In this document: one piece after another, positions 1,580 through 61,910 of the stretch
How the letters are laid out: each line of letters starts with the position of its first letter
Position numbering within the stretch: the stretch's first letter is position 1
Origin: a virus
Taxonomy: Duplodnaviria > Heunggongvirae > Uroviricota > Caudoviricetes
Reading direction: 5' to 3' (one strand)
Length of the DNA: 64,000 nucleotides
IMG/VR virus record: IMGVR_UViG_3300026078_000021
Location: 51,539-115,538 of that record
Translations under genes and position numbers: made by a program
Notes under the pieces: generated by a model
The model's database searches: none
Seen by the model: only the letters and a program-made list of their open reading frames with translations
What the model was told of the DNA's origin: nothing

Positions 1580-1635
1580 GACGTGGAGTATCCACCAGTT
1601 GTGACGCGGTGAGCAACATGCCGGGCACGCGGAGG

Positions 1636-1721
1636 CGGAGAGTGCGGGAGTCGAACCCACCACCGGTGTCACCCGGCCACGCCCTTCCAAGACGCTCGGC
1701 CCGCCACATGCCGGACTCTCC
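1636..1721 (-). tRNA. tRNA-Ser(GGA), class II with long variable arm
   Basis: rc T-loop AGTCGAA; 7-bp acceptor GGAGAGT/ACTCTCC; anticodon stem GCGTC/GGCGT; loop TTGGAAG; 86 nt; discriminator G. Confidence 0.8.
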
Positions 1722-1725
1722 AGGG

Positions 1726-1812
1726 CGGTGGGTGGGAGAGTCGAACTCCCAACGGCTGTGACACCGCCACGGTTTTCGGGACCGCTTGACACGCTCAACT
1801 GTCGGACCCACC
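1726..1812 (-). tRNA. tRNA-Ser(CGA), class II; anticodon loop CCCGAAA has C at position 33
   Basis: Acceptor GGTGGGT/ACCCACC; T-arm GGGAG-TTCGACT-CTCCC; 87 nt; anticodon stem GCGGT/ACCGT. Confidence 0.65.
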
Positions 1813-1816
1813 CGAG

Positions 1817-1890
1817 CGGGGCTGACGGGACTTGAACCCGCGACCTTCACCTTGACAGGGTGACGAGCACTCCAACTGCTCCACAGTCCC
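1817..1890 (-). tRNA. tRNA-Asp(GTC)
   Basis: Anticodon arm TCACC-CTGTCAA-GGTGA; 74 nt; one A-C mismatch in the acceptor stem. Confidence 0.8.
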
Positions 1891-1894
1891 ACAG

Positions 1895-1977
1895 CGGAAG
1901 AGGACGGATTCGAACCGTCGGGACCGAAGCCCACCGGCTTAGCAGGCCGGCCCGATAGGCCACTCCGGCACACTTCC
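1895..1977 (-). tRNA. tRNA-Ser(GCT), class II
   Basis: Anticodon arm CCGGC-CTGCTAA-GCCGG; long variable arm; T-loop TTCGAAT; U-U mismatch at 6:67. Confidence 0.8.
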
Positions 1978-1981
1978 ACAG

Positions 1982-2052
1982 AACGGATGACGGGAGTCGA
2001 ACCCGCGCTGCCACCGTGGCAAGGTGACGTCCTACCGTTGGACCACATCCGC
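1982..2052 (-). tRNA. tRNA-Gly(GCC)
   Basis: 5' GCGGATG; loop TTGCCAC; discriminator U; 71 nt. Confidence 0.8.
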
Positions 2053-2065
2053 ACGTTACCGCTGG

Positions 2066-2138
2066 TTGCTCGGGCCGGGCTCGAACCGGCTGCCTCCGCC
2101 CTATGAGGGCGGCGCTCTACCAGTTGAGCTACCGAGCC
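2066..2138 (-). tRNA. tRNA-Met(CAT), elongator-type (or Ile2 after lysidine modification)
   Basis: Anticodon arm CCGCC-CTCATAG-GGCGG; D-arm GCTCAACTGGTAGAGC; G1-A72 mismatch. Confidence 0.75.
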
Positions 2139-2139
2139 G

Positions 2140-2213
2140 TGACGCTGGCGGGAGTCGAACCCGCACTGGCAGACACCTCAAGCCTGTCCCTCTGCCCATT
2201 GGGGTACAGCGTC
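2140..2213 (-). tRNA. tRNA with anticodon GAG (Leu, CUC/CUU) but a class I body (5-nt variable loop, 74 nt)
   Basis: Perfect 7-bp acceptor GACGCTG/CAGCGTC; anticodon arm CAGGC-TTGAGGT-GTCTG; variable CCAGT; A73. Paralogous to the next gene. Confidence 0.6.
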
Positions 2214-2217
2214 TCGG

Positions 2218-2289
2218 TGCCGCCCCGGGGAGTCGAACCCCGACTGGCTGCGACCTGAACGCAGTGCCTCTGCCATTGGGCTAGAGCGG
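2218..2289 (-). tRNA. tRNA with anticodon CAG (Leu, CUG) but a class I, tRNA-Gln-like body (72 nt)
   Basis: Anticodon arm CTGCG-TTCAGGT-CGCAG, a perfect 5-bp stem; variable CCAGT; D-arm GCCCAATGGCAGAGGCA resembles the Gln type; A73. Confidence 0.6.
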
Positions 2290-2305
2290 CAAGGTATTGA
2301 CAGCG

Positions 2306-2379
2306 CTCCCGAGCGAGGATTCGAACCTCGAAACCTTCGCGTCCAGAGCGCGACGTGCTGCCAGTTACACCACTCGGGA
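2306..2379 (-). tRNA. tRNA-Gln(CTG)
   Basis: U1-A72; anticodon arm TCGCG-CTCTGGA-CGCGA; G73. Confidence 0.8.
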
Positions 2380-2426
2380 AAGCTGGGGCGGTGCGCGCCC
2401 GGGATGGTCGACCAGACGCGCACCAG

Positions 2427-2500
2427 TCGGGAAGGAGGGATTTGAACCCCCAACGTCCTGGTCCCAAACCAGGCGCCCTGCCAAGTTGGGCCACATCCCG
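2427..2500 (-). tRNA. tRNA-Pro(TGG)
   Basis: 5' CGGGATG; anticodon arm CCTGG-TTTGGGA-CCAGG; T-loop TTCAAAT. Confidence 0.8.
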
Positions 2501-2566
2501 TGGCGGCCGGTCTTTCAACGCACGCGTGCCGGAGGTGTGCCCCGGCTTGGTTCCGGCCGAGCGTCG

Positions 2567-2640
2567 TGGCGGGGACAGGATTTGAACCTGCGACCTCCAG
2601 GTTATGAGCCTGGCGGGCTACCGAGCTGCCCTACCCCGCG
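2567..2640 (-). tRNA. tRNA-Met(CAT), initiator-like (5' CGCGGGG with unpaired 1:72; T-loop TTCAAAT)
   Basis: Anticodon arm CCAGG-CTCATAA-CCTGG; D-arm AGCTCGGTAGCC. Lacks the canonical GGG/CCC anticodon-stem signature, so initiator status is uncertain. Confidence 0.7.
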
Positions 2641-2701
2641 CCGAACTGGCGGCAACCAGTGGTTGTCAACCAGTGTTGCTGCTACTGTATCACGATCTTC
2701 G

Positions 2702-2775
2702 AGCCCCGTCGGGGAGTCGAACCCCGGGCCTGTCGCTTACGAGGCGACCGCTCTTGCCGGCTGAGCTAACAGGGC
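2702..2775 (-). tRNA. tRNA-Thr(CGT)
   Basis: Anticodon arm GTCGC-CTCGTAA-GCGAC; D-arm GCTCAGCCGGCAAGAGC. Confidence 0.8.
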
Positions 2776-2778
2776 CAG

Positions 2779-2850
2779 TGGAGCAGGAGGGATTTGAACC
2801 CTCAGCCGCTTGCTTGCAAGGCAAGTGCTCTGCCAGTTGAGCTACAGCCC
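2779..2850 (-). tRNA. tRNA-Ala(TGC)
   Basis: G3-U70 identity pair present; anticodon arm CTTGC-CTTGCAA-GCAAG. Confidence 0.8.
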
Positions 2851-2920
2851 CGGGGAAACGATCGTGCCCGGCACGACGATAGCCGCCGGCCGGGCACTGG
2901 TAAAGCCGATTGCTTAGCGG

Positions 2921-3244
2921 TTACGGCGAGATCGTGACGGTCTCCCCGGCGTGTATGCCGTTGCACTCGTACCAGCGGCGCATTTCGGCGCCCGCCTCGG
3001 AGTAGATGGAGGCGTGCGTGACGAGCCGGGTGGCCACCAGTTCCACGATGCGGTCGACGGTGGACTGCACGCCCTCGGCGGTGACGCGCGTGACGATCCG
3101 CACGCTTTCGCGTTGGCTGGCTTCGTGCTCGCCGCAGTGCAGGACGGCGTAGCCTTCGGTGGGTTCGTCAAAGCCCATACTTCTGTGTCTGGGCGCGAGT
3201 GCGGTAGAGGACATGGACGCCTCAGATGGAGGACTGGAAGCCAA
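2921..3244 (-). CDS. hypothetical protein
   Basis: 107-aa ORF; the real start may be the internal Met (MGFDEPTEGYAVLHCGEHE...). Confidence 0.35.
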   Translation of the reverse strand: MASSPPSEASMSSTALAPRHRSMGFDEPTEGYAVLHCGEHEASQRESVRIVTRVTAEGVQSTVDRIVELVATRLVTHASIYSEAGAEMRRWYECNGIHAGETVTISP

Positions 3245-3405
3245 CGGGCGCTTGGGCCCTTGCGTTCCGGCGCGCGTCGGCCTGCTGCCTCAAGGTCAAC
3301 GAACGGGTGTCGGGGATCGCGCTGGGTATGGATGTCTGGTCCACGACGGACTCCTCGTATCGGGGACGGGGGTTTGCGGGATTCGCTAGCCCCGCCACGG
3401 TACTA

Positions 3406-3630
3406 CTAATCCGTGTGTGCGGCCAGGGTTTCATCCTCGTCCTGGTCAACCGGTTGCGTATCCGCGACCGCGACGAAACCGAACGGGAACTTCACAGGTT
3501 GACGCACTACCATGTCGCGCAGCAACTGGCGCGCCGCGCGTTTCGCCTGGTGCAGCGTCTTTCGTGACGAGCCCTTGATATGCACATCCACCGCTTGCTC
3601 ACCGTTGGTCACGGTCAGGCGCACTAACAC
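3406..3630 (-). CDS. hypothetical small protein
   Basis: 74-aa ORF with an acidic C-terminus, directly downstream of the GNAT gene. Confidence 0.35.
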   Translation of the reverse strand: MLVRLTVTNGEQAVDVHIKGSSRKTLHQAKRAARQLLRDMVVRQPVKFPFGFVAVADTQPVDQDEDETLAAHTD

Positions 3631-4331
3631 AGCTCCTTGAGTTCACTGGTGCCCGCCGCCCCGAAGTGGCGGCGACACCCGGGTAGGCCCCGCACCTCGA
3701 TCTGGTCGCGAAGCCGCGTGCGGGGCGGCAGCGCCACGTAGGTGTCGCGGGTGAGGGTGTAGTGCAGTTCGAACGTAGGCCGGTCGCGCACCTGGCAGGC
3801 GTGTATGCCGGTCAACTCGTAGCCGAACCTGGCGTTGATGCGCCGCGAGGCCATGTTGTCGCGCAGCGCGACGGTGCGCGCCGCGTACGCGCCGAGCGCG
3901 ATGAACGCCAGGTGCAGCACGGCGGCGCGCATCTCGGTTCCGTAGCCCTGCCGCTGGTAGGGCAGGCCGAGCCAGGAACCGGTGCGTACGGTGCGCTGCT
4001 GCGCGAAGTCACGGGCCGCCAGGCTCTGGACGCCGATCACATCGCCCCAGGTGCCGCGCCGAAGCACGGTGAACTCGCAATCCCAGTCCTGCTCGCTCCA
4101 GGCGTCGCGTTTCTCCCACCACCAGTCCATGACGGCTTCGCCGCGCTGCGCGGGCCCGACGTCGGTCCAGGCGTTGGTGAACGGCTGCACGGCCGGGTCG
4201 TGGATGCCGTCTTCGGCGAGGCCGGCGAGGCGTAGCAGCCATCGCTCGTCGGTGGCGCGCAGTTCCAGGCGTGGTGTGCGTATACTCAGGCCGTTTAGAT
4301 CGTGGTACCGGCGTGTCGTTATCTCGTCCAC
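3624..4331 (-). CDS. GNAT-family N-acetyltransferase (RimL-like)
   Basis: 235 aa; 'WLGLPYQRQGYGTE' matches the Q/RxxGxG/A acetyl-CoA binding motif A. Confidence 0.65.
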   Translation of the reverse strand: MDEITTRRYHDLNGLSIRTPRLELRATDERWLLRLAGLAEDGIHDPAVQPFTNAWTDVGPAQRGEAVMDWWWEKRDAWSEQDWDCEFTVLRRGTWGDVIGVQSLAARDFAQQRTVRTGSWLGLPYQRQGYGTEMRAAVLHLAFIALGAYAARTVALRDNMASRRINARFGYELTGIHACQVRDRPTFELHYTLTRDTYVALPPRTRLRDQIEVRGLPGCRRHFGAAGTSELKELC

Positions 4332-4385
4332 ACCACGTGATACTACTAGTCGGACTCCCGCTGTTTCAGCGCATTAGGTCGAATC

Positions 4386-4904
4386 ATGGTACGAACACTA
4401 AAAAGCTGCGGGACACTCGCCGCGTACCGCCGGCACAAGCGCCGGCGGGAACTGGCGTGCGACGCCTGCGTGATGGCCAGCCGCCTCTACAACTGGGAGC
4501 GCGCGCACCCCGGCGTGCCCTACGCGCCGGCGCGCCACGGCATACCCGAACACGGCACGATGCCGGCCTACCGGCGCCACAAACGGTACGGCGAGACGGT
4601 CTGCGAGCCGTGCCGGCAGGAATGCGCCCGATACGTGCGCGAACGGCGCCACGTGCGCAAACAAGCGGCGCTCGCGCGCCGGCTCGCGCCCGGCGTCCTC
4701 GCGTGGATCTACGCCCAGCACGACGCCGACCAGCTCACGGACATCCTCGGGCTGCCGCGTCAGCTAAACGGGCCCGGGTCAGCCCCGCCGTCCTCGCCGA
4801 AACCGATGCCCAGCAGCCCGAGCGCGTGGTCCACCGCGTCGCACGCCCTCTCGTACGCCTCGTCGTCGCCGGTCGCGGCGGTGGCCTCAAGCAGCGCCTC
4901 GTAG
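4386..4904 (+). CDS. putative DNA-binding protein with a duplicated zinc-ribbon motif
   Basis: GTLAAYRRHKRRRELACDAC and GTMPAYRRHKRYGETVCEPCRQ are a tandem GT-x2-AYRRHKR-x-GE-x2-C-x2-C motif. The C-terminal ~50 aa are low complexity and overlap a convergent minus-strand ORF. Confidence 0.5.
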   Translation: MVRTLKSCGTLAAYRRHKRRRELACDACVMASRLYNWERAHPGVPYAPARHGIPEHGTMPAYRRHKRYGETVCEPCRQECARYVRERRHVRKQAALARRLAPGVLAWIYAQHDADQLTDILGLPRQLNGPGSAPPSSPKPMPSSPSAWSTASHALSYASSSPVAAVASSSAS

Positions 4905-4960
4905 GCGTCGACCAGGCGGCACACGTGCCGCACCGGCACCACACGCGTCGGGGTGATGGT
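4760..4960 (-). CDS. hypothetical acidic protein (start uncertain, non-ATG)
   Basis: Protein-like segment VDAYEALLEATAATGDDEAYERACDAVDHALGLLGIGFGEDGG. The ORF-track start at 5056 would overlap the tRNA at 4989-5062. Confidence 0.25.
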   Translation of the reverse strand, partial: TITPTRVVPVRHVCRLVDAYEALLEATAATGDDEAYERACDAVDHALGLLGIGFGEDGGADPGPFS

Positions 4961-4988
4961 GGGCGTGGTCTCGCTGCGGGCGTTCACG

Positions 4989-5062
4989 TAGGCGCGACAG
5001 GATTCGAACCTGCATGCCGAACGTTTTGAGCGTTCGAGGTCTACCGTTGCCGTCACGCGCCC
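4989..5062 (-). tRNA. tRNA with anticodon CAA (Leu, UUG) but a class I body and an aberrant D-arm
   Basis: Acceptor GGGCGCG/CGCGCCT (G1-U72); anticodon arm GAACG-CTCAAAA-CGTTC; 5-nt variable loop; T-loop TTCGAAT; A73. Confidence 0.5.
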
Positions 5063-5096
5063 GGATGTGAACGCCAGAGTACCAGCCGCTGGATTG

Positions 5097-5318
5097 TCAG
5101 TCGGTGGCCGGCTCGAACGTCACCAGGTAGTTGCCGCCGAGTTCGAACAGGTCGGCGACCTCGTTCTTGACGGTGAGCGAGAAGTCAAGCGCCGGGGTGT
5201 ACTTCGCCCACTGCTTATTGCGCCCGTCCTGGTAGTCAGGCAGGAACTTCAGGGTCGTCTCTCCGGACGCCACCATGTTCTTGCCGGTGTTCTTGACCTT
5301 GGCGGTGATCGCGCTCAT
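5097..5318 (-). CDS. hypothetical small protein
   Basis: Trimmed to the internal Met (MSAITAKVKNTGKNMVASGETTLKFLPDYQ...). Confidence 0.45.
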   Translation of the reverse strand: MSAITAKVKNTGKNMVASGETTLKFLPDYQDGRNKQWAKYTPALDFSLTVKNEVADLFELGGNYLVTFEPATD

Positions 5319-5393
5319 GCGCTTCCTTCGAATCGAGGGAGGGGTTCCCTCCCGCGCGGGCCCTCGAACCACGCGGGAGGGAAGTTCAGGGGT

Positions 5394-5798
5394 TTACTCG
5401 TCCCGGCCGTATGCCTGGTCGCGGGCGCGACGCAGGACACGGATGAGGTCGTTCAGTTCGCTGCGGCTGAAGACCATGGAGAAGGTCTCGCGCTCCTCTT
5501 CCAGCAGGTCGACGTCGCGCACGGCGTCGCGCTTGGCGAGGGCGTCTTCCAGGCGGGATACATACTCTTCCCATGGAACGTTCTTGCGCTCTACCAGGGA
5601 GACCTGCACATTGCCGGTGCGGTCATGTCCAGCGCCGGCCCAGCGCACGGAGAGCTGGGGCCACACGTCGGTGGTGATGGTGCACCCGGGGGGGCAGCCC
5701 TCACCGGGCAGGCAGTCGTGGTGCATTTGCTGCACCACGGGGAAGCCGATCAGTTCTTTGGGCATCACGCCACGCTCCATCACGGAGAGGTTGTGCAT
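5394..5798 (-). CDS. hypothetical protein
   Basis: 134-aa ORF; Cys/His-containing N-terminus and an acidic helical C-terminus. Confidence 0.45.
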   Translation of the reverse strand: MHNLSVMERGVMPKELIGFPVVQQMHHDCLPGEGCPPGCTITTDVWPQLSVRWAGAGHDRTGNVQVSLVERKNVPWEEYVSRLEDALAKRDAVRDVDLLEEERETFSMVFSRSELNDLIRVLRRARDQAYGRDE

Positions 5799-5815
5799 GT
5801 ACGACGGTTGTCGTA

Positions 5816-5886
5816 GAACGCCTGACGGGATTCGAACCCGTGTGCGCGGCTTTGCAGGCCGCCGCCTCGCCTCTCGGCCACAGGCG
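5816..5886 (-). tRNA. tRNA-Cys(GCA)
   Basis: Anticodon arm GCGGC-CTGCAAA-GCCGC; U73; 71 nt. Confidence 0.8.
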
Positions 5887-5889
5887 TAC

Positions 5890-5960
5890 GAGCTGATGAC
5901 CGGTGTCGAACCGGCGTGTCCCGCGTGGGAGGCGGACGCTCTGCCGTTGAGCTACATCAG
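5890..5960 (-). tRNA. tRNA-Gly(CCC)
   Basis: Anticodon arm TCCGC-CTCCCAC-GCGGG; T-loop TTCGACA; U73. Confidence 0.75.
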
Positions 5961-5961
5961 C

Positions 5962-6041
5962 GTGGCGCGTCTAGGAATCGAACCTAGCCAGCGGTGAGCG
6001 ACTGATTTACAGTCAGCCTGACGTCCCAGCGTCGGACGCGC
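5962..6041 (-). tRNA. tRNA-Tyr(GTA), class II
   Basis: Anticodon arm GCTGA-CTGTAAA-TCAGT; long variable arm; acceptor GGCGCGT/ACGCGCC; 80 nt. Confidence 0.75.
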
Positions 6042-6325
6042 CAAGGGTGGGACTACCCGTTGATGGTAGCGCCTTGGCGTCGTCGCAGGTTTTGTGGCAC
6101 GGCTTGCCGGTCAGCGGGTGGCGCAGCAGGGCGGTGCATCCGCAGTACACGCAGACACCCATGGTGCCGAAACGCGCGGCGGGGGCGTGGGACCAGTCGA
6201 CGGCGCCCCAGGGGGTGCGCCCGTTCTTCGCGAGCGCGGCGGTGGAGCGGCGTGGCGGCATGCGCGGTCCTGGTTGTTCTAGGACTGTGGATGCACGAGT
6301 CGCATCATGGGGATAGTACGGTGCT

Positions 6326-18712: not shown

Positions 18713-20521
18713 TCACTGTGTGTCGAGGTGCCCCATCAGCTCGGCCGCCGCCTGCGCCTTAGCCACCTTCTTTGAACCCCCGGACCCCCGGCCCTCCACC
18801 ACCACATCGCCCAACCGTGCCGTCAACACCGCGTCGAACACCAAACCAGCCGTACCAGCCCGAGCCATACCCGCAGTGACCTTCCACTCCACCTCACGCA
18901 GCCGCCCCGTCATCCGCGCATGGTTAAGCGCCTGCATCGGATTATCACAGGCCGCCGCGCCCGCACGGGGCGACTCCACCACCGACACAGTCGAATCAAC
19001 CAAATCACCCGACGGATCTGGGACACCAGCGAGCACCGCCAAAACACTCAGCGCCGCCTGCGCCTGCGCGGCCTTCTTAGTCGACGCCGATCGCGCCGCA
19101 CCCTGCACCAGCACGCCCGCCGCGTCACCGACACAGCCCGCTACGACGAACACCGGCGCATGCGACGGCCCAGCCGACTCATCCCGGTACACCGGCGGGT
19201 CCACACCGCGCGTCACCGCATGCATCGCCACCAGGCTCACCGCCCAGTCCACCCGCCGGCACACCTGAGCAAGACACGCCGCCTTCGCCGCCACCCACTC
19301 CGAGCCCGACGGCAAAAGCAGCAGGTGATACAGATCCCGCAACTCCAGCAGATCCGCGTCCGCACGTCGGCACACCTCCGCCAGAAACCCCGGTGACGCG
19401 ACGCCTTCCTTCGTGGCCCGCTTCACCAAAGCGAAGAACCGGCTAGCCGTCATCTTCGGATAGTCCGCGCCATGATCAAGAATCCCGCGCGCGATCTCGT
19501 GCGCCGCCACCCGCGCAGCCGCGCCGTCAGCTGCCTTCGCCTGCGCGATCACCACCGTCAACCGGTCACAGAACCCTGCCACCTGCTCCTGCGTGAACAA
19601 CGCCGGGCGCCCATCCAAATACGCCACCATGGCCTGCTGCGAAACCATGTCAGCAGCCCGACGCAAAGGGCTCGTCGCGTGACAGTACACCGCCGCACCC
19701 AGGCCATGATGCCCACGCGGAAACGCACCATACGTCGCCCGGCGCCCCGTCAACTCCGCGCGCCGCAACCACAACGCCAACTCATCCGGGTCCTCGCTCT
19801 CCAACGCCGCCGACAGATCCTCAAGATGCACAGCAGCAGGAGCCGCACCCGACGCGGCAACGTGATTACGGTAGATCACCGGCACATCGTTCTCCACCGC
19901 CCACGTCGCCACCGCCCGGTTCGCCGCGACCATGCACTCCTGCACGATCAGATGCCCGACGATGCGCGCCGGCTTCACCCGCACCAACGCACCGTCCTCA
20001 TCCACGAACACGCCACGCTGAAAATCGTAGAACGCGCTCGTCGCACCGAGCCGCGCACGAAACAGCGCCTCCGCAACCCCCCGCAACGCACACAACGACC
20101 CGTGATGCGGATCATCCGGGCGCCGCACAGCCTCCGCGACCTCATCGTGCGTGAGCGCCACCGCGTCCGCGAGCTTGCCCCGCGACACCAACGCCGGACC
20201 CGGCACAGCGCAGGCGTCCAACGGCATGCGCACCTCAATCACAGGACGCACCTCGCCCTGCGCCAACGTGCACGCGGCCTCAACGTCCGGCGGCAGCATC
20301 GTCTCCACCGCCGCGTGCCCCCGGTACCGTGACGCGCCCCGCGTGAACGCCAACTCGGTCAAACCCGGATCGGCAGTGATGGCGTCGGTCAGATCAGCGA
20401 CGTACACAGTCAGGGCGCGCGGACCATCGCTCGCGATTTCGAGGCGGATCGCGTCGTCACGGTCGCGCGTGCCCGCCCCGTCGATCATGTAGGCGACGGT
20501 GCCGCCCGTAGACATATCCAT
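18713..20521 (-). CDS. RNB-domain exoribonuclease (RNase II/R family) with C-terminal dsRBD-like repeats
   Basis: 602 aa; 'HHGLGAAVYCHATSPLRRAADMVSQQ' is the RNB active-site motif. Two C-terminal 'GSxKKxAxAxAAxxxL' dsRBM-like segments. Confidence 0.75.
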   Translation of the reverse strand: MDMSTGGTVAYMIDGAGTRDRDDAIRLEIASDGPRALTVYVADLTDAITADPGLTELAFTRGASRYRGHAAVETMLPPDVEAACTLAQGEVRPVIEVRMPLDACAVPGPALVSRGKLADAVALTHDEVAEAVRRPDDPHHGSLCALRGVAEALFRARLGATSAFYDFQRGVFVDEDGALVRVKPARIVGHLIVQECMVAANRAVATWAVENDVPVIYRNHVAASGAAPAAVHLEDLSAALESEDPDELALWLRRAELTGRRATYGAFPRGHHGLGAAVYCHATSPLRRAADMVSQQAMVAYLDGRPALFTQEQVAGFCDRLTVVIAQAKAADGAAARVAAHEIARGILDHGADYPKMTASRFFALVKRATKEGVASPGFLAEVCRRADADLLELRDLYHLLLLPSGSEWVAAKAACLAQVCRRVDWAVSLVAMHAVTRGVDPPVYRDESAGPSHAPVFVVAGCVGDAAGVLVQGAARSASTKKAAQAQAALSVLAVLAGVPDPSGDLVDSTVSVVESPRAGAAACDNPMQALNHARMTGRLREVEWKVTAGMARAGTAGLVFDAVLTARLGDVVVEGRGSGGSKKVAKAQAAAELMGHLDTQ

Positions 20522-38896: not shown

Positions 38897-39874
38897 TTAG
38901 CCGAGCGCCGCCGCGACCAGGTGCGCCGGGTCGCGCTCCAGGCGGCGCGCGGCCCGCTGGTAGCGGCGGGTGGTGCGCGGGTCGGCGTGTCCCATCGCGT
39001 CCTGTAGATCGTCGAGATCCGCGCCGCGCTCGGTCGCGATCGTGGCGAAGGTGTGGCGCAGCGCGTGCGGGGTCACGGCGGTGGGGTCGGGCAGCCCGGC
39101 CTCCTGTGCGAGGCGGCGCACGAGGCGGAACACCTCGCTTCGGTCGACGGCCTTGCCGCCGGAGGTGACGAACACCAGCCCTGTCAGGTCCTTGACACGT
39201 ACCCCGGCTTGTTTGGCGCGCGCCTTGAGGTACACGTCCAGTACGGTGCCGGTAGCGACGGGCACGGCGCGGGCGATCCTTTTGCCGCCCTTGCCGCGTA
39301 CGGTGACGGTGCGCATGCCCTTGGCGGTGCTGAATGCGTCGAGCGGGAGTTTGCACACCTCGCTGACTCGAATGCCCAGTTGCAGCATGAGGCGGACCAT
39401 GACGGCGTCGCGTAGGGCGTTGGGGGTTTCGCGCTGGTCGGCGTGCTCGATCAGGCGGCGGGCGGATGCCTCGTCGAGCCACGCGGTGGGGGAGTAGTCC
39501 CGGTCGACCTTGGGGCGTTGCGCGGCGGCGAACGGGTTGCGCTCGTGCTCGTCGCAGGCGATCAGGTGCCGGTACCAGGAGGAGACCGCCGCCATGCGCC
39601 GCGCGGCGCTGGCCTCGGACAGGGGCCGGGGGTTTGCGCGGGAGTCTTGGAGCCAGGCGCCGAACAGGTCGGCGTCGGGTTTGCGCGCGGTCAGCACGTG
39701 CACGCCGCGCTCGGCGCAGAACGCGCCCCAGGCGCGCAGGTCGCGGGCGTAGGCCTCGCGGGTGTTGGGGCGTTTGGTCAGCAGCCACGCGGCGGTGGCT
39801 TCGGCGATGGGGTCTTGGTCGCGGGTGTCGTAGGGGTGCAGGGCGGTGTTAGTGGTGGCGATGGTGGTGTTCAT
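38897..39874 (-). CDS. int: tyrosine-type site-specific recombinase/integrase (XerC/D-like)
   Basis: R...HxxR...Y catalytic residues: 'ALRDAVMVRLMLQLGIRVSE', 'HALRHTFAT', 'GHADPRTTRRY'. Confidence 0.85.
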   Translation of the reverse strand: MNTTIATTNTALHPYDTRDQDPIAEATAAWLLTKRPNTREAYARDLRAWGAFCAERGVHVLTARKPDADLFGAWLQDSRANPRPLSEASAARRMAAVSSWYRHLIACDEHERNPFAAAQRPKVDRDYSPTAWLDEASARRLIEHADQRETPNALRDAVMVRLMLQLGIRVSEVCKLPLDAFSTAKGMRTVTVRGKGGKRIARAVPVATGTVLDVYLKARAKQAGVRVKDLTGLVFVTSGGKAVDRSEVFRLVRRLAQEAGLPDPTAVTPHALRHTFATIATERGADLDDLQDAMGHADPRTTRRYQRAARRLERDPAHLVAAALG

Positions 39875-39916
39875 GGTGGGCTCCCCGGAAAACACAGTCA
39901 CGCGTCGCGCGCAACA

Positions 39917-43377: not shown

Positions 43378-43399
43378 GGGTCGTCCTCGTGCAGGGGAA

Positions 43400-43540
43400 A
43401 CGATGGACGGGCCGACCCCGGTGCGCCTTCACGCGAGTGCCCATCGTCCTGGCTACGCTGCTCTACCGTTGAGCTACACGGCCGCGTGGCCGCGCATGGA
43501 TTCGAACCATGAACCAGCCGATTAACAGTCGGAAGTAGGC
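43400..43540 (-). ncRNA. Y-RNA-like ncRNA 1 (tRNA-like module at 43459-43533; retains a GUU anticodon stem-loop)
   Basis: Layout is D-arm (GCUCAACGGUAGAGC), acceptor 5' strand GGCCGUG, 4-nt loop, acceptor 3' strand CGCGGCC, T-arm CAUGG-UUCGAAU-CCAUG. The two halves of a tRNA-Asn-like sequence are permuted and the acceptor stem is closed by a loop. Confidence 0.5.
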
Positions 43541-43559
43541 CAGGGCTGCGCTTCGCGTG

Positions 43560-43700
43560 AAGGCGCTGTGGAGTTGTGCACAGGTTGGTTCGCGAGTGCC
43601 TAGGCGCGTAGGACACGTAGGCGCTCTATCCACTGAGCTACAAGGGCCACGTCGGGCCCCCGGCGGGATTCGAACCCGCGACCTCCCGCTCCCAAAGCGA
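43560..43700 (-). ncRNA. Y-RNA-like ncRNA 2 (tRNA-like module 43621-43679)
   Basis: D-arm GCUCAGUGGAUAGAGC, acceptor GCCCUUG/CGGGGGC closed by an 8-nt loop, T-arm GCGGG-UUCGAAU-CCCGC. Confidence 0.45.
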
Positions 43701-43759
43701 AGTAACCCACGCTATCGCTTCGCGAACCAACCTGTGTTCGGCCCGGCCGCGAGGCGACC

Positions 43760-43900
43760 GGTGACAACCGCACCATGAGAGACCGGCGAGTTCCAGCGAA
43801 CGAGGGGAGTGGAACTCTCATGCTCTACCAAATGAGCTATAAATGCGAAGTTAGTGCATTTAACTGGATTCGAACCGGTTACCTTGAGAAGGAACCCCGT
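43760..43900 (-). ncRNA. Y-RNA-like ncRNA 3 (tRNA-like module 43822-43880)
   Basis: D-arm GCUCAUUUGGUAGAGC, perfect 7-bp acceptor GCAUUUA/UAAAUGC closed by a 9-nt loop, T-arm ACCGG-UUCGAAU-CCAGU. Confidence 0.45.
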
Positions 43901-44033
43901 CCAGCGCTTCGCCGATCCATCACTATGCGGTTGTCAGGGTGCTGCGAGTGCCTGGTCACGGGGGTTTGGGCTCTCAATTCCCAAAGGATGGCTGAGAAGT
44001 ATCCCCCGCGTTCGCTTCGCGGCACCGCTCAAC

Positions 44034-44365
44034 CTACCCGCGAGCGCCACACCGTGCAAGCCTGTTGATTTGCTCATATGATAGCCCCGGCCGCGCGACG
44101 GCCCCCGCCACAGCCAGCGCACAGTCCGACCAGCCCGCCTCATAGCCCTGCCGGTACAACCCCTCGCCGTCCGTGAGGCCGTAGAGAAACAGGACGCTGA
44201 CGTTGCATGCCTGCGCGATCGCAAGCAGCTTGCCGGCGGGGGGCTCGTGCTGACCGCGCTCCCAGTTAGTCATCGTGGGGCTGCTCACGCCGACGCGCCG
44301 CGCCAGTTCCCGCTGACTGATGCCCGCCCCGCTTCGGGCGCGGGCGATGTTCCCACCCAGGCTCA
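44034..44365 (-). CDS. XRE-family HTH regulator (GTG start)
   Basis: 'ISQRELARRVGVSSPTMTNWERGQHEP'. Confidence 0.6.
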
Positions 44366-44825: not shown

Positions 44826-44944
44826 TGCGGGTCACGCGTTCCTCCCGGGAAACAGGGGCGGCCGAGCGCGACTTATATCCATTCGCGCCCGGCCTTGTAT
44901 GGGTCATTTTTCAAGTAACCGTTCACCCATGAACATCACGCCGA

Positions 44945-60084: not shown

Positions 60085-60193
60085 GGTTATCCCTTCAGCG
60101 AGGGGTGTCAATGCATGAGTAGTGCACGATAACACGGAAGACTTCACCTGGCGAAACACACGTATATACGCGCCTTGCATACGCATGCGGCGG

Positions 60194-60265
60194 TACCTCC
60201 GACGGGACTCGAACCCGTTCCTCCACGTTGAAAGGGTGGTGACCTACCCATAGTGCGACGGAGGC
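60194..60265 (-). tRNA. tRNA-Glu(TTC)
   Basis: Loop CTTTCAA; acceptor GCCTCCG/CGGAGGT; C-C mismatch at 31:39. Confidence 0.7.
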
Positions 60266-60277
60266 ATGCGGGATGCG

Positions 60278-60351
60278 TGGCGCCAGCGGGGCTCGAACCC
60301 GTCACTACCGACTTGAGAGACCGGCGGTCTGCCGACTTAACCTATGGCGCC
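60278..60351 (-). tRNA. tRNA-Glu(CTC)
   Basis: Anticodon arm CCGGT-CTCTCAA-GTCGG; perfect acceptor GGCGCCA/TGGCGCC. Confidence 0.7.
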
Positions 60352-60352
60352 G

Positions 60353-60425
60353 TGCCCCCTGCCGGTCTCGAACCGGCGACCCGCGCATTAAGAGTGCGCT
60401 GCTCTACCCGCTGAGCTAAAGGGGC
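60353..60425 (-). tRNA. tRNA-Lys(CTT)
   Basis: Anticodon arm GCGCA-CTCTTAA-TGCGC. Confidence 0.8.
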
Positions 60426-60435
60426 GTACCACGGG

Positions 60436-60507
60436 TGGGACCGGTGGGACTCGAACCCACAACCTACGGATTAAAAGTCCGCTACTCTGCCATTGAGTTA
60501 CGATCCC
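60436..60507 (-). tRNA. tRNA-Lys(TTT)
   Basis: Anticodon arm GCGGA-CTTTTAA-TCCGT. Confidence 0.8.
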
Positions 60508-60560
60508 GCGATCAGGCTACTGCACCGGCTCTGCCGACGCCGCCGTTTTGTCCTTTGCCG

Positions 60561-60633
60561 TGGCCCCGGACGGAGTCGAACCGCCGACCTCTCCCTTTTC
60601 AGGGGAACGCTCTACCGGCTGAGCTACAAGGCC
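60561..60633 (-). tRNA. tRNA-Phe(GAA)
   Basis: Anticodon arm TTCCC-CTGAAAA-GGGAG; D-arm GCTCAGCCGGTAGAGC. Confidence 0.8.
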
Positions 60634-60636
60634 ATC

Positions 60637-60660
60637 GCGTCGCACCGGCCGGTGCGACGC
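60637..60660. terminator. perfect 24-bp palindrome GCGTCGCACCGG/CCGGTGCGACGC (hairpin; possible terminator)
   Basis: Perfect inverted repeat with no flanking T-run, so function is uncertain. Confidence 0.3.
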
Positions 60661-60884
60661 GGTACTCAGATAGACGAGTTGAACAGGGCCTCATCGGGTT
60701 TGGGCCGCGTGTCGCCCGCGAGGTCACCCAGCGTGGCCCTGCTCACATCCGGCACCCGGGAAGACAAGTTCGTGTCCATGCCGAATCACCAGCCTCTCTC
60801 TTACCTCGCGCAGCGGATGGTCGGTGAGGGCAGAGGCCTGCCCCCTGCCCGAACGATAGCATTCGTCGTATCGCACCGCGCGTG

Positions 60885-60957
60885 CACGCCCACGAGGATT
60901 CGAACCTCGAACCGCCCGGGTTGGAGCCGGGTGCTCTGCCAGTTGAGCTATAGGCGC
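60885..60957 (-). tRNA. tRNA-Trp(CCA)
   Basis: Anticodon arm CCCGG-CTCCAAC-CCGGG; G73. Confidence 0.8.
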
Positions 60958-60996
60958 CCGCCTGTCCACCGCGCCGACGCTCGACACGGTGCCTGT

Positions 60997-61069
60997 CGCT
61001 CTCCCGGCAGGACTCGAACCTGCGACCCTCGCATTAACAGTGCGGTGCTCTGCCCACTGAGCTACGGAA
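60997..61069 (-). tRNA. tRNA-Asn(GTT)
   Basis: U1-A72; loop CTGTTAA; G73. Confidence 0.75.
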
Positions 61070-61125
61070 GACCGGCGCCAGGCGCATGGGGTGCCTGGCG
61101 TGGCGGGGCACGCGCGGCACCTGCG

Positions 61126-61198
61126 TCGTCCCGGACGGTCTCGAACCGCCCACCTCCGGCGTGTCGTGCCGGCGCTCTCCCGACTGAGCTACGGGACG
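61126..61198 (-). tRNA. tRNA-Val(GAC); anticodon loop ACGACAC has C at position 33
   Basis: Perfect acceptor CGTCCCG/CGGGACG; anticodon stem CCGGC/GCCGG. Confidence 0.65.
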
Positions 61199-61210
61199 TG
61201 CATCGCGTGG

Positions 61211-61284
61211 TCGGCCCGGCAGGGTTTGAACCTGCGACCTCCCCGGTGTGGGCGGGGCGCTCTCCCGAACTGAGCTACAAGCCG
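61211..61284 (-). tRNA. tRNA-Val(CAC); anticodon loop CCCACAC has C at position 33
   Basis: Anticodon stem CCCCG/CGGGG; T-loop TTCAAAC. Confidence 0.65.
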
Positions 61285-61294
61285 TCGTTATGCG

Positions 61295-61368
61295 TTGGCC
61301 TCCCGGGATTTGAACCCGGAACCTCCCGGTTATCAGCCGGGTGCTCCGACCGCTTGAGCTAGAGACCA
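61295..61368 (-). tRNA. tRNA-Ile(GAT)
   Basis: Anticodon arm CCCGG-CTGATAA-CCGGG. Confidence 0.8.
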
Positions 61369-61417
61369 TCAACCAGATGACGAGCACCATGGTAACCGAC
61401 GTACACGAGTGTATCGA

Positions 61418-61466
61418 GGGGAAGGCGCGGCGCAGGATGCGGACCGCCGCGCCTTCCGTTTCTCAT
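61418..61466 (+). terminator. 13-bp GC-rich inverted repeat followed by GTTTCT (rho-independent terminator-like)
   Basis: GGAAGGCGCGGCG caggatgcggac CGCCGCGCCTTCC gtttctc. Confidence 0.3.
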
Positions 61467-61530
61467 CCCATCCGAACCAGGCGAGAGCGCGCCCGGCGCA
61501 CGCGGGTTACCAGCCCGCGCGGTTCCTGCG

Positions 61531-61602
61531 CCGGGATTCGAACCCGGACGCGACGCTTCGGGGGCGCCTGCTCTATCCGTTGAGCTACGCAGGAGGAGAA
61601 CA
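61531..61602 (-). tRNA. tRNA-Arg(CCG); anticodon loop CCCCGAA has C at position 33
   Basis: Perfect acceptor TCCTGCG/CGCAGGA; anticodon stem GGCGC/GCGTC. Confidence 0.65.
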
Positions 61603-61648
61603 AGGTGCAGCCGGGCCGCAAGCGGCGACACCACAGGAAGGAGGCTGG

Positions 61649-61721
61649 GCCCGGCGCCGTGCCTCCAACCGGATTCGAACCGGTGACCCGCGCATTATAA
61701 CGGCGCCGCTCTACCTGCTGA
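61649..61721 (-). tRNA. tRNA with anticodon TAT (Ile, AUA); 4-bp anticodon stem with a C-U mismatch
   Basis: Anticodon arm GCGCC-GTTATAA-TGCGC; acceptor GCCTCTA/TGGAGGC. Confidence 0.5.
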
Positions 61722-61723
61722 GC

Positions 61724-61760
61724 TATAGAGGCTCGTTCTGCTGCCCCTCGTCCCGTGCGG
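61724..61760. terminator. 12-bp perfect inverted repeat TTCTGCTGCCCC...GGGGCAGCAGAA (hairpin)
   Basis: Stem-loop between two tRNA genes; no T-run. Confidence 0.25.
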
Positions 61761-61838
61761 GGCAGCAGAACTGGGCGGCACGACGGCGCGCAAGGGCAGC
61801 GCCCGCGCACCGAACACGCCGGTCCCGAGCCCCTGGCA

Positions 61839-61910
61839 GGAATCGAACCTGCACGTGCGGCTCCGTAAACCGCTGCTCTGTCCGTTGAGCTACAAGGGCG
61901 TAATACAGGG
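61839..61910 (-). tRNA. tRNA-Arg(ACG)
   Basis: Anticodon arm GCGGT-TTACGGA-GCCGC; U73. Confidence 0.8.

What the first reader, a model, noticed from the sequence alone, without database searches (positions are those of the whole stretch)
2140..5062. Three class-I-shaped tRNAs carrying leucine anticodons (GAG, CAG, CAA)
tRNAs at 2140-2213 and 2218-2289 are paralogs with a tRNA-Gln-like D-arm and 5-nt variable loops. The one at 4989-5062 is similar. All three fold with perfect or near-perfect acceptor and anticodon stems, a 5-nt variable loop and A73, yet their anticodons decode Leu codons. Bacterial tRNA-Leu is otherwise class II with a long variable arm. All Ser and Tyr tRNAs in this same array do have long arms, so the folding procedure is internally consistent. 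No canonical long-arm tRNA-Leu is present in the window. This could be a novel compact tRNA-Leu, or anticodon-swapped tRNAs that mistranslate, as described for tRNA-ProA in Streptomyces.
Basis: seen in the sequence. Interest (0 to 1): 0.7.

Follow-up and report, generated by a model that had tools for sequence, protein, structure and literature searches.

The report
Compact short-armed leucine tRNAs, known kind
The three short leucine tRNAs are real, but they belong to a widespread family of compact tRNA-Leu genes found in many phages, plasmids and Streptomyces chromosomes, one of which is known to be charged with leucine, so they are ordinary decoders and not a new class or a mistranslation device.

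Summary
ARAGORN and Rfam find three 73-74 nt class I cloverleaves on the minus strand, with anticodons GAG, CAG and CAA, 5-nt variable loops and A73. The window holds no long-armed tRNA-Leu.

- These tRNAs are not novel. A D-arm-only pattern, with the anticodon left free, found 99 tRNAs in IMG/VR. All 99 are class I and all carry Leu anticodons.
- The same architecture appears in at least 215 isolated-phage records annotated as tRNA-Leu, in a Nonomuraea plasmid tRNA array, and in the chromosomal tRNA-Leu(CAA) of Streptomyces and Kitasatospora.
- The S. coelicolor member of that chromosomal tRNA has been shown to be leucylated (Fan et al. 2019).
- The D arm is Leu-like, not Gln-like. It has a 3-bp stem, N13·A22, A14, A20a and A15:U48, plus A73. 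This is the published E. coli LeuRS identity set, which needs neither the long arm nor the anticodon.
- A covariance model built from the family raises the score of only these three tRNAs over the general tRNA model (+32, +25, +18 bits). The 24 others that could be compared all lose 3-33 bits.
- The three anticodons read 95% of the Leu codons in the element.

Mistranslation is not supported. The CAA copy is divergent and less certain. Verdict: a new member of a known kind, of low-to-moderate interest.

The parts
2140..2213 (-). Compact (class I) tRNA-Leu, anticodon GAG. It has U8 A9, a 3-bp D stem CCC/GGG with C13·A22, D loop AAUGGGCAG, variable loop CCAGU (so A15:U48) and A73. No CCA is encoded.
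   Evidence: ARAGORN. Rfam RF00005 gives 50.3 bits, with the alignment. The family model R1 gives 75.1 bits, 24.8 bits above the general tRNA model.
2218..2290 (-). Compact (class I) tRNA-Leu, anticodon CAG. It has U8 A9, D stem GCC/GGC with C13·A22, D loop AAUGGCAG, variable loop CCAGU and A73. It lies 4 nt upstream of the GAG tRNA.
   Evidence: ARAGORN. Rfam gives 48.6 bits. R1 gives 80.3 bits, the top hit in the window, 31.7 bits above the general model. Its D arm is identical to that of IMG/VR L116 and differs by one base from Streptomyces L161.
4989..5062 (-). Divergent compact tRNA-Leu, anticodon CAA, standing alone between protein genes. It has U8 G9, D-arm core GGC-AACGGUAG-ACC with a bulged C or a mismatch, variable loop GGCAU, G1·U72 and A73.
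   Evidence: ARAGORN. Rfam gives 35.7 bits. R1 gives 53.8 bits, 18.1 bits above the general model but not above several other tRNAs in absolute score. The nearest D arm found is in IMG/VR L033 tRNA-Leu(caa/cag). An exact-pattern search found nothing in IMG/VR or the JGI metagenomes.
1634..2851 (-). First block of the tRNA array, 13 closely spaced tRNAs: Ser x3, Asp, Gly, Met x2, Leu x2, Gln, Pro, Thr, Ala. It contains the GAG and CAG tRNAs.
   Evidence: ARAGORN; Rfam.
5816..6042 (-). Small tRNA block (Cys, Gly, Tyr). The Tyr tRNA has a long variable arm.
   Evidence: ARAGORN; Rfam.
60192..61899 (-). Second large tRNA block, 13 tRNAs: Glu x2, Lys x2, Phe, Trp, Asn, Val x2, Ile x2, Arg x2. With the other blocks the array covers 19 amino acids; His is missing.
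   Evidence: ARAGORN; Rfam.

Best explanation
The three genes are leucine-accepting tRNAs of the compact (type I, short-variable-loop) form. They belong to a roughly 30-tRNA array on a high-GC mobile element, most likely a large actinobacterial phage.

Proposed mechanism:
1. The tRNAs are transcribed with their neighbours, and CCA is added by the host.
2. The host LeuRS charges them with leucine. It recognises the D/T-loop hinge and the acceptor end, not the anticodon or the variable arm.
3. They then read CUC/CUU (GAG), CUG (CAG) and UUG (CAA), which make up 95% of the element's Leu codons.

Shown here: the fold, the anticodon register, membership of a large covarying family that carries only Leu anticodons, the presence of the published LeuRS identity nucleotides, and the match to codon usage.

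Inferred: actual leucylation (by analogy with the homologous S. coelicolor tRNA), expression, and the reason the compact form is preferred.

The GAG and CAG copies are typical family members. The CAA copy belongs to a rarer sub-type with a weak D stem, and its function is less certain.
For: Fold and register.

Family membership:
- The pattern CCCAA-N(1-3)-GGCAGAGG-N8-T, with the anticodon unconstrained, hit 99 ARAGORN tRNAs in IMG/VR. All 99 have Leu anticodons (UAA 54, UAG 21, CAA 14, CAG 5, GAG 4, AAG 1). All are 73-78 nt, from contigs of 32-70% GC.
- An alignment of 143 family members, none from the window, supports the class I cloverleaf. 98.1% of cells are paired and 20 of 21 pairs show changes on both sides; structures slid by 1-3 columns pair in only 34-47% of cells. 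The 15:48 tertiary pair covaries as A:U (111) and G:C (28).
- The family covariance model scores CAG 80.3, GAG 75.1 and CAA 53.8 bits. Against Rfam's general tRNA model that is +31.7, +24.8 and +18.1 bits. Each of the 24 other tRNAs that could be compared loses 3-33 bits.

Identity elements:
- The combination of a 3-bp D stem with N13·A22, A14, A15:U48 and A73 occurs in 119/181 compact Leu tRNAs and 21/28 class II Leu tRNAs from the same loci. Among about 740 tRNAs of other isotypes it occurs 8 times.
- These are the E. coli LeuRS determinants: A73, A15-U48, G18G19 and A20a. The long arm and the anticodon are dispensable, and truncated tRNA-Leu lacking both remains active (PMC9976931).

Biochemical precedent:
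- The type I tRNA-Leu(CAA) of S. coelicolor has variable loop ACAGC. ScoLeuRS leucylates it with Km 0.16 uM and kcat 1.0 per second (PMC6614811).
- The Streptomyces/Kitasatospora chromosomal genes found have the same architecture as the window's tRNAs (GCCCCGG UA GCC C AGCGGnAG A GGC ... ACAGC ... A73).

Functional equivalence with class II: in related cluster C mycobacteriophages the same array slots hold either a class II or a compact tRNA-Leu with nearly identical anticodon arms. Bonray has cag at 86 nt and caa at 75 nt; Myrna has cag at 76 nt and caa at 83 nt. The variable regions are TGTCCGTAGGACGT and TGTGT.

Decoding need: Leu codons in 57 predicted genes are CUG 54%, CUC 28% and UUG 9%. 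The array covers 19 amino acids, and Leu is supplied only by these three genes.
Against: - No aminoacylation or expression data exist for these tRNAs or for any phage member of the family.
- Fan et al. report that E. coli LeuRS and one Streptomyces LeuRS do not charge the S. coelicolor type I tRNA. Charging therefore depends on the host enzyme, and the host of this element is unknown.
- The IMG/VR family set was selected by its D arm, so the D-arm part of the model score is partly circular for GAG and CAG. The variable loop, A73, the 15:48 pair and the anticodon were not selected.
- The CAA tRNA has a weak D stem and an ambiguous A14 register. Its absolute R1 score (rank 10) is no better than that of several non-Leu tRNAs, and no close relative was found.
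- tRNAscan-SE isotype models were not available.
Confidence: 0.85

Rival explanations
1. The tRNAs are anticodon-swapped mistranslators. On this view their bodies belong to another isotype, such as Gln, they have acquired Leu anticodons, and they insert the wrong amino acid at Leu codons, as tRNA-ProX does in Streptomyces.
For: Only superficial evidence. The class I shape is unusual for a bacterial tRNA-Leu. The D loop (AAUGGCAG) resembles that of the neighbouring tRNA-Gln (AACUGGCA).
Against: - In IMG/VR this body type carries only Leu anticodons (99 of 99, six different anticodons).
- The tRNAs have A73 with G1-C72 or G1·U72, not the U1-A72 with G73 of the window's tRNA-Gln.
- They are only 50-59% identical to that tRNA-Gln, against 74-77% to other compact Leu tRNAs.
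- They carry the LeuRS identity set.
- The largest ORFs gave no synthetase-like Pfam or PHROG hit.
- The three anticodons read 95% of the element's own Leu codons, so mistranslation would affect its whole proteome.
- The homologous S. coelicolor tRNA accepts leucine (PMC6614811).
Confidence: 0.03
2. One or more of the three, chiefly the isolated CAA copy, is a decaying or non-functional tRNA pseudogene, or a tRNA-like element with a job other than translation.
For: - The CAA tRNA has the lowest Rfam score in the array (35.7 bits).
- Its D stem has a mismatch or a bulge.
- It sits alone between protein genes.
- No related copy was found by pattern search in IMG/VR or the JGI metagenomes.
- The window does contain tRNA-like non-tRNAs next to the Ro60 gene.
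Against: - Its acceptor, anticodon and T arms are intact, and U33, G53, U54, U55, C56, A58, C61 and A73 are all present.
- It is the only reader of UUG (9% of Leu codons) in the array.
- It gains 18 bits with the compact-Leu model while every non-Leu tRNA loses score.
- A similar D arm (GGC-AAC(A)GGUAG-ACC) occurs in two compact Leu tRNAs of another high-GC viral contig, L033.
- GAG and CAG have no defects at all.
Confidence: 0.1
3. The main value of the compact form is to replace host tRNAs under attack, not to supply codons. On this view a tRNA-Leu without the long arm, and with altered anticodon-loop flanks, escapes host tRNA-targeting toxins or defence nucleases. This could hold alongside the best explanation, because it concerns why the compact form was selected.
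For: - tRNA arrays on mycobacterial mobile elements and phages have been proposed to act against host defences (PMC10264068; PMC12803027).
- The compact form recurs in phages of very different hosts, and in several phages it sits beside a class II copy.
Against: [quoted passage not shown]
- Nothing in the window links the tRNAs to a defence or counter-defence gene.
- Streptomyces keeps a compact tRNA-Leu(CAA) as an apparently essential chromosomal gene (PMC6614811), which needs no defence rationale.
Confidence: 0.2

Closest known systems
Type I tRNA-Leu(CAA) of Streptomyces coelicolor (Fan et al., NAR 2019, PMC6614811)
   Same: Both are class I cloverleaves with a 5-nt variable loop (ACAGC in S. 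coelicolor, CCAGU here). Both have U8 A9, a GCC/GGC 3-bp D stem with C13·A22, a D loop of the form A14 N15 .. GG N AG, A73, and no need for a long arm. The Streptomyces genes retrieved are 67-73% identical to the window's CAG tRNA.
   Different: The Streptomyces gene is chromosomal, single-copy, occurs only as the CAA isoacceptor, and has a G15:C48 tertiary pair. The window's copies sit on a mobile tRNA array, cover three anticodons, replace all class II Leu tRNAs within the array, and have A15:U48. Only the Streptomyces tRNA has been tested biochemically.
Compact tRNA-Leu genes annotated in isolated phages, such as cluster C mycobacteriophages Bonray and Myrna, Gordonia phage Nedarya, Streptomyces phage GiJojo, Salmonella phage SB18, cyanophage P-RSM6, Enterococcus phage 113 and Pseudomonas phage ZC03
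   Same: They have the same D-arm signature, a variable loop of the NNAGU type, A15:U48, A73 and a length of 73-77 nt. They are annotated as tRNA-Leu. The GAG tRNA here is 77% identical to Myrna's tRNA-Leu(gag).
   Different: Most isolated phages carry one compact copy, usually UAA, UAG or CAA, often beside a class II copy. Here all three Leu tRNAs are compact. This is also seen in some IMG/VR contigs (L012, L033, L092, L096, L109).
tRNA array units of actinobacterial mobile elements (Morgado and Vicente 2018, PMC5966550; Behra et al. 2019, PMC6582537; Yano et al. 2026, PMC12803027)
   Same: Both are dense arrays of about 30 tRNAs covering 19-20 amino acids on phages, plasmids or genomic islands. 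The tRNA bodies differ from the chromosomal ones. A cluster-encoded tRNA-Leu with a short variable loop is explicitly noted in PMC6582537. The Nonomuraea plasmid array (L007) has compact Leu(aag) and Leu(cag).
   Different: This element has no near relative in the phage or plasmid collections searched. Its array is split into three blocks.
Animal mitochondrial tRNA-Leu (class I)
   Same: It has a short variable loop, A73 and leucine acceptance.
   Different: It belongs to an unrelated lineage with reduced D/T-loop interactions. ScoLeuRS does not charge human mitochondrial tRNA-Leu(UUR) (PMC6614811). The window's tRNAs keep the full G18G19/U55C56 elbow.
tRNA-ProX/ProRSx deliberate mistranslation system of Streptomyces
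   Same: The only shared point is that anticodon and expected tRNA shape appear not to match.
   Different: In that system the tRNA body keeps Pro identity and a dedicated synthetase paralogue is encoded nearby. Here the body carries Leu identity elements and no synthetase was seen.

Membership tests
Compact (type I) bacterial/phage tRNA-Leu | Class I cloverleaf with a short (about 5-nt) variable loop | tested here: met
   ARAGORN cloverleaves and Rfam alignments give variable loops CCAGU, CCAGU and GGCAU. In the family, the loop is 5 nt in 101 of 123 unique IMG/VR members and in 45 of 46 genome members.
Compact (type I) bacterial/phage tRNA-Leu | Leu anticodon (NAG or YAA) at positions 34-36 in a 7-nt loop, with U33 and a purine at 37 | tested here: met
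   The loops are UUGAGGU, UUCAGGU and CUCAAAA. All 99 of 99 IMG/VR tRNAs with this D arm carry Leu anticodons.
Compact (type I) bacterial/phage tRNA-Leu | Leu-type D arm: U8, a 3-bp D stem, an N13·A22 mismatch, A14, G18G19 and A20a | tested here: met
   GAG and CAG have UA-CCC/GCC-C-AAU(G)GGCAG-A-GGG/GGC. For CAA the feature is met only in the Rfam register, which has a bulged C, so that copy is inconclusive on its own.
Compact (type I) bacterial/phage tRNA-Leu | A 15:48 tertiary pair of A:U (phage type) or G:C (Streptomyces type), plus discriminator A73 | tested here: met
   All three have A15:U48 and A73. In the family, 15:48 is A:U in 111 and G:C in 28 of 143 sequences. A73 occurs in 116 of 123 IMG/VR members and 45 of 46 genome members.
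Compact (type I) bacterial/phage tRNA-Leu | Scores better with a family-specific covariance model than with the general tRNA model | tested here: met
   R1 minus RF00005 is +31.7 (CAG), +24.8 (GAG) and +18.1 (CAA) bits. Each of the 24 other tRNAs that could be compared scores -3 to -33. Caveat: most training sequences were selected by their D arm.
Compact (type I) bacterial/phage tRNA-Leu | Leucylated by the host LeuRS | not testable with these tools
   This has been shown only for the S. coelicolor homologue (PMC6614811). The host of this element is unknown.
Canonical class II bacterial tRNA-Leu | Long variable arm (more than 10 nt, forming a stem-loop) | tested here: not met
   The variable regions are 5 nt in both ARAGORN and the covariance-model alignments. 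The Ser and Tyr tRNAs of the same array do have long arms.
Canonical class II bacterial tRNA-Leu | LeuRS identity set: A73, A14, A15-U48, G18G19 and A20a | tested here: met
   The set is present, as listed above. The same combination occurs in 21 of 28 class II Leu tRNAs from the fetched phage loci. The identity set is taken from PMC9976931.
Anticodon-swapped mistranslating tRNAs (tRNA-ProX type) | tRNA body carrying the identity elements of a different amino acid from the one its anticodon specifies | tested here: not met
   The body carries Leu identity elements. It lacks the U1-A72 with G73 of the window's tRNA-Gln. It has no G3·U70; positions 3-70 are C-G, C-G and G-C.
Anticodon-swapped mistranslating tRNAs (tRNA-ProX type) | A dedicated synthetase paralogue encoded nearby | tested here: inconclusive
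   Twenty ORFs, including the largest ones, gave no synthetase hit in PHROGs, and the ten largest gave none in Pfam. Not every ORF was scanned, and only 64 kb of the element is visible.
tRNA array unit of actinobacterial mobile elements | A dense cluster of 20 or more tRNA genes covering nearly all amino acids, in a mobile-element context | tested here: met
   ARAGORN tRNAs, 30 of them credible, in three blocks covering 19 amino acids. The window also has a tyrosine integrase. Related proteins lie on 111-134 kb IMG/VR viral contigs, one of which carries 47 tRNAs.

The most novel reading that the evidence does not exclude
The compact tRNA-Leu may be a single, horizontally spreading, mobile-element-borne lineage and not an oddity of Streptomyces. 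On this reading phages of many phyla keep it because a tRNA-Leu without the long arm, but with A73, A15:U48 and the D-loop determinants, is still charged by most bacterial LeuRS enzymes. At the same time it would escape host factors (toxins, defence tRNases, modification or processing dependencies) that act on class II tRNAs. The essential chromosomal type I tRNA-Leu(CAA) of Streptomyces and Kitasatospora would then be a captured phage gene, not an ancestral relic as Fan et al. suggested. The window would be one example in which a phage has converted its whole Leu set to this form.
Probability: 0.15. Interest if true: 0.6.

Novelty: new member of a known kind. Interest (0 to 1): 0.25.

Why it matters
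For this window it matters little. The tRNAs should be annotated as tRNA-Leu, not flagged as isotype mismatches or recoding devices.

The wider pattern seen along the way may interest tRNA specialists.
- A class I tRNA-Leu scaffold occurs with all six Leu anticodons in phages whose contigs range from 32% to 70% GC.
- It keeps the E. coli-type LeuRS identity set.
- Its 15:48 pair covaries between the phage form (A:U) and the Streptomyces form (G:C).
- In related mycobacteriophages it swaps with class II copies at equivalent array positions.

In the literature I could search, only the Streptomyces case has been studied biochemically. The phage family offers natural test substrates for two questions: how LeuRS copes without the long arm, and why mobile elements prefer the compact form.

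Tried and rejected
Searches for relatives of the element:
- Megablast of 1600-6100 against INPHARED phages gave no match.
- tblastn of the 497-aa and 892-aa ORFs against phages gave no match, so the element has no close isolated relative.
- A look-up of the Ro60 protein showed only metagenomic sources.
- Synteny through the neighbouring gene 5394-5798 found relatives on IMG/VR contigs, but none keeps the CAA tRNA. The closest, L248, shares only that gene.

Searches for relatives of the CAA tRNA:
- blastn against phages gave nothing.
- The exact pattern GGCAACGGTAGACC-N7-CTCAAAA gave nothing in IMG/VR or the JGI metagenomes. Conservation of that copy could therefore not be tested.

Tests that did not work:
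- A simple D-loop sequence motif (AA-N-GGNAGA) proved not to be Leu-specific. It also matches the standard GCUC...GAGC D arm of many class I tRNAs. I replaced it with a pairing-aware feature set.
- A slipped anticodon register (for example UGA) was considered and rejected, because the flanking stem then fails to pair and both programs agree on GAG.

Literature:
- Searches for an explicit description of the phage compact tRNA-Leu family found only the Streptomyces paper and a remark about a mycobacterial tRNA cluster.
- One search was badly framed and gave nothing useful.

Not done: tRNAscan-SE isotype models were not available, and host identification was not pursued.

Full report
OBSERVATION

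ARAGORN finds 31 tRNA genes in the window, all on the minus strand. Three carry Leu anticodons: 2139-2213 (GAG), 2216-2290 (CAG) and 4988-5062 (CAA). Each is 75 nt including trailing bases.

The drawn cloverleaves show 7-bp acceptor stems, 3-bp D stems, 5-bp anticodon and T stems, 5-nt variable loops and A73. Rfam's general tRNA model matches all three above its gathering score of 29 bits: 50.3, 48.6 and 35.7 bits. Its alignments place GAG, CAG and CAA at positions 34-36 after U33.

There is no alternative loop register and no hidden long arm. The window contains no class II tRNA-Leu, while its Ser (84-89 nt) and Tyr (81 nt) tRNAs do have long arms.

CONTEXT

The window is 62-71% GC and almost all its genes are on the minus strand. 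Recognisable genes include:
- a tyrosine integrase at 38897-39901;
- a Ro60/TROVE protein at 41713-43377;
- an RNB plus dsRBD nuclease at 18713-20521;
- a DUF2637 protein.

It has no near match among isolated phages. Its Ro60 protein is recorded only on metagenomic contigs. Homologues of its proteins lie on IMG/VR viral contigs of 111-134 kb, one of which carries 47 tRNAs.

The tRNAs form three blocks (1634-2851, 5816-6042, 60192-61899), plus the isolated CAA gene. Together they cover 19 amino acids; His is missing. This is a 'tRNA array unit' of the kind described on actinobacterial phages, plasmids and islands (PMC5966550, PMC12803027). It most probably sits on a large actinophage.

WHAT THE THREE tRNAs ARE

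A sensitive blastn search with the GAG and CAG pair hit tRNA genes already annotated as tRNA-Leu in cluster C mycobacteriophages and in Gordonia phage Nedarya. Reading those loci gave these lengths:
- Bonray: Leu(cag) 86 nt, Leu(gag) 74 nt, Leu(caa) 75 nt.
- Myrna: Leu(cag) 76 nt, Leu(gag) 74 nt, Leu(caa) 83 nt.
- Nedarya: Leu(cag) 75 nt.

A Nonomuraea linear plasmid carries a 35-tRNA array with compact Leu(aag) and Leu(cag) beside a class II Leu(caa).

The compact genes share a signature:
- U8 A9;
- a 3-bp D stem NCC/GGN with C13·A22;
- a D loop of the form AA-N(1-3)-GGCAG;
- a variable loop mostly of the form NNAGU;
- A73.

I scanned IMG/VR with the D arm alone and left the anticodon free. 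Ninety-nine of the matches are ARAGORN tRNAs. All 99 are 73-78 nt and all carry Leu anticodons: UAA 54, UAG 21, CAA 14, CAG 5, GAG 4, AAG 1. Their contigs range from 32% to 70% GC. The remaining loci are non-tRNA chance matches, apart from two or three that look like interrupted copies. Several viral contigs carry three to five compact Leu isoacceptors (L012, L033, L092, L096, L109). An all-compact Leu set is therefore not unique to this window.

A low-GC family member used as a blastn query matched 215 isolated-phage records. Their hosts include Streptomyces, Mycobacterium, Erwinia, Salmonella, Enterococcus, Bacillus, Pseudomonas, Vibrio, Lactobacillus, Aeromonas and cyanobacteria. The five records I opened all have annotated tRNA-Leu genes of 74-77 nt.

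BIOCHEMICAL PRECEDENT

Fan et al. (NAR 2019, PMC6614811) studied S. coelicolor. They showed that it has one type I tRNA-Leu(CAA) with variable loop A44-C45-A46-G47-C48, alongside four class II Leu tRNAs. Its single LeuRS leucylates both types; for the type I tRNA the Km is 0.16 uM and kcat is 1.0 per second. A 5-nt variable loop and the U8:A14 pair matter for charging. The leucine-specific domain of LeuRS is what allows type I charging.

I searched the GTDB representative genomes with a pattern built only from the anticodon, that variable loop and the T loop. One hundred of the 120 hits are 74-77 nt tRNA-Leu(CAA) genes. Nearly all come from Streptomyces and Kitasatospora. The commonest is GCCCCGG-UA-GCC-C-AGCGGUAG-A-GGC-C-AUGGA-UUCAAAA-CCCAU-ACAGC-GUCGG-UUCGAAU-CCGAC-UCGGGGC-A.

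This is the same architecture as the window's tRNAs, and these genes are 67-73% identical to the CAG copy. The difference is that position 15 is G and position 48 is C. A short-variable-loop tRNA-Leu in a mycobacterial tRNA cluster has also been noted (PMC6582537).

STRUCTURE AND IDENTITY

An alignment of 143 compact Leu tRNAs, none from the window, supports the class I cloverleaf.
- 98.1% of cells form standard pairs, against 34-47% when partners are slid by 1-3 columns.
- 20 of 21 pairs show changes on both sides.
- The 15:48 tertiary pair covaries as A:U (111) and G:C (28).

The D arm is not Gln-like. It matches the class II tRNA-Leu genes in the same phage contigs (UG-GCG-G-AAyyGGCAG-A-CGC), and it differs from the window's own tRNA-Gln, which has a 4-bp D stem, U1-A72 and G73.

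I counted one combination of features across isotypes: a 3-bp D stem with N13·A22, A14, A15:U48 and A73. It occurs in:
- 119 of 181 compact Leu tRNAs (most of the rest are the G15:C48 Streptomyces type);
- 21 of 28 class II Leu tRNAs;
- 8 of about 740 tRNAs of other isotypes.

These are the published E. coli LeuRS determinants: A73, A15-U48, G18G19 and A20a. The anticodon and the long arm are dispensable, and truncated tRNA-Leu lacking both remains active (PMC9976931).

A covariance model built from the family scores the window's CAG tRNA at 80.3 bits, GAG at 75.1 and CAA at 53.8. Compared with the Rfam general model these are gains of 31.7, 24.8 and 18.1 bits. Each of the 24 other tRNAs that could be compared loses 3-33 bits. 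One caveat applies: most training sequences were chosen by their D arm.

FUNCTION

In 57 predicted genes, Leu codons are CUG 54%, CUC 28%, UUG 9%, CUU 4%, CUA 4% and UUA 1%. The three anticodons therefore read 95% of the Leu codons and match their order of use.

In the related mycobacteriophages Bonray and Myrna, the same array slots hold either a class II or a compact tRNA-Leu with nearly identical anticodon arms. In the CAA slot the variable regions differ by a clean removal of the hairpin: TGTCCGTAGGACGT against TGTGT. This argues that the two forms are interchangeable in vivo.

The best explanation is that these are ordinary Leu-accepting tRNAs in the compact form, charged by the host LeuRS. 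The steps that remain inferred are leucylation, expression and the selective reason for compactness.

THE CAA COPY

The CAA copy differs from the other two in several ways.
- It has U8 G9.
- Its D-arm core is GGC-AACGGUAG-ACC, with the stem polarity reversed and either a bulged C (Rfam register) or a C·C mismatch (ARAGORN register).
- Its variable loop is GGCAU.
- It has a G1·U72 pair.
- It lies apart from the array.

Its closest D arm among the sequences fetched is in two compact Leu tRNAs of another high-GC viral contig, L033. That suggests a second, rarer compact sub-type and not random decay. I found no close relatives, however, so its conservation is untested. I put its functionality at about 0.6, against about 0.9 for the other two.

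RIVALS

Mistranslation by anticodon-swapped tRNAs is contradicted by several results:
- this tRNA body is linked exclusively to Leu anticodons;
- it carries Leu identity elements;
- it lacks the acceptor features of tRNA-Gln;
- mistranslation would hit 95% of the element's own Leu codons;
- the Streptomyces homologue accepts leucine.

Pseudogene status is conceivable only for CAA. An anti-defence rationale for the compact shape is compatible with the main explanation, but nothing here supports it.

NOVELTY AND VERDICT

The genes are new sequences of a known kind. Type I tRNA-Leu has been characterised biochemically in Streptomyces, noted in mycobacterial tRNA clusters, and annotated as tRNA-Leu in hundreds of phage genomes. 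The finding should be scored low.

I did not find the breadth and coherence of the phage family described in the literature I could search. That is the only part with some wider interest.

Noticed in passing
window 41713-45240, minus strand: The Ro60/TROVE gene at 41713-43377 is followed by four sub-threshold Rfam YrlA (Y RNA-like) matches, at 43457-43518, 43620-43686, 43791-43914 and 44951-45062 (28-38 bits; gathering score 69). The family model R1 also gives weak tRNA-like hits at 43404-43541 and 45086-45238. This looks like a phage-borne Ro60 with several divergent Y RNA-like genes.
   Followed up: partly
window 43654-43727, minus strand: ARAGORN's second 'tRNA-Pro(tgg)' does not reach the Rfam tRNA gathering score; no tRNA is reported between 7000 and 60000. 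It overlaps a YrlA match. It is probably the tRNA-like module of a Y RNA and not a tRNA.
   Followed up: partly
L001 2441-2676 (Bonray) and L002 2357-2650 (Myrna): In these related cluster C mycobacteriophages the same array slots switch between class II and compact tRNA-Leu, with nearly identical anticodon arms. The cag slot is 86 nt in Bonray and 76 nt in Myrna; the caa slot is 75 nt and 83 nt. The long arm has therefore been lost or gained recently and more than once.
   Followed up: partly
L066 and L123 (perhaps also L055), IMG/VR loci: The 5' half of a compact tRNA-Leu, with the family D arm and anticodon stem, runs into non-tRNA sequence right after U33. These may be intron-containing tRNA-Leu(UAA) genes in phage contigs.
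   Followed up: no
window 18713-20521, minus strand: A 602-aa protein has an RNB (RNase II/R) domain and a double-stranded RNA-binding motif. Together with Ro60 it suggests an RNA-processing or RNA-quality-control module on the element.
   Followed up: no
window, whole tRNA set: The array lacks tRNA-His. It includes tRNA-Ile(UAU) at 61659-61732 and two CAU tRNAs, at 2063-2138 and 2566-2640. None of the three Leu genes encodes a full CCA end.
   Followed up: no
L002 3217-3288 (Myrna) and L258 4420-4493: ARAGORN calls tRNAs with anticodon CUA ('tRNA-Pyl') in two phage tRNA arrays. These may be amber-suppressor-like tRNAs.
   Followed up: no
L178 (Planctomycetota MAG) and L222, genome-contig loci: These loci hold tRNA arrays of 34 and 31 genes that carry compact tRNA-Leu. 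One is outside the Actinobacteria. In L178 compact and class II Leu tRNAs sit side by side.
   Followed up: no
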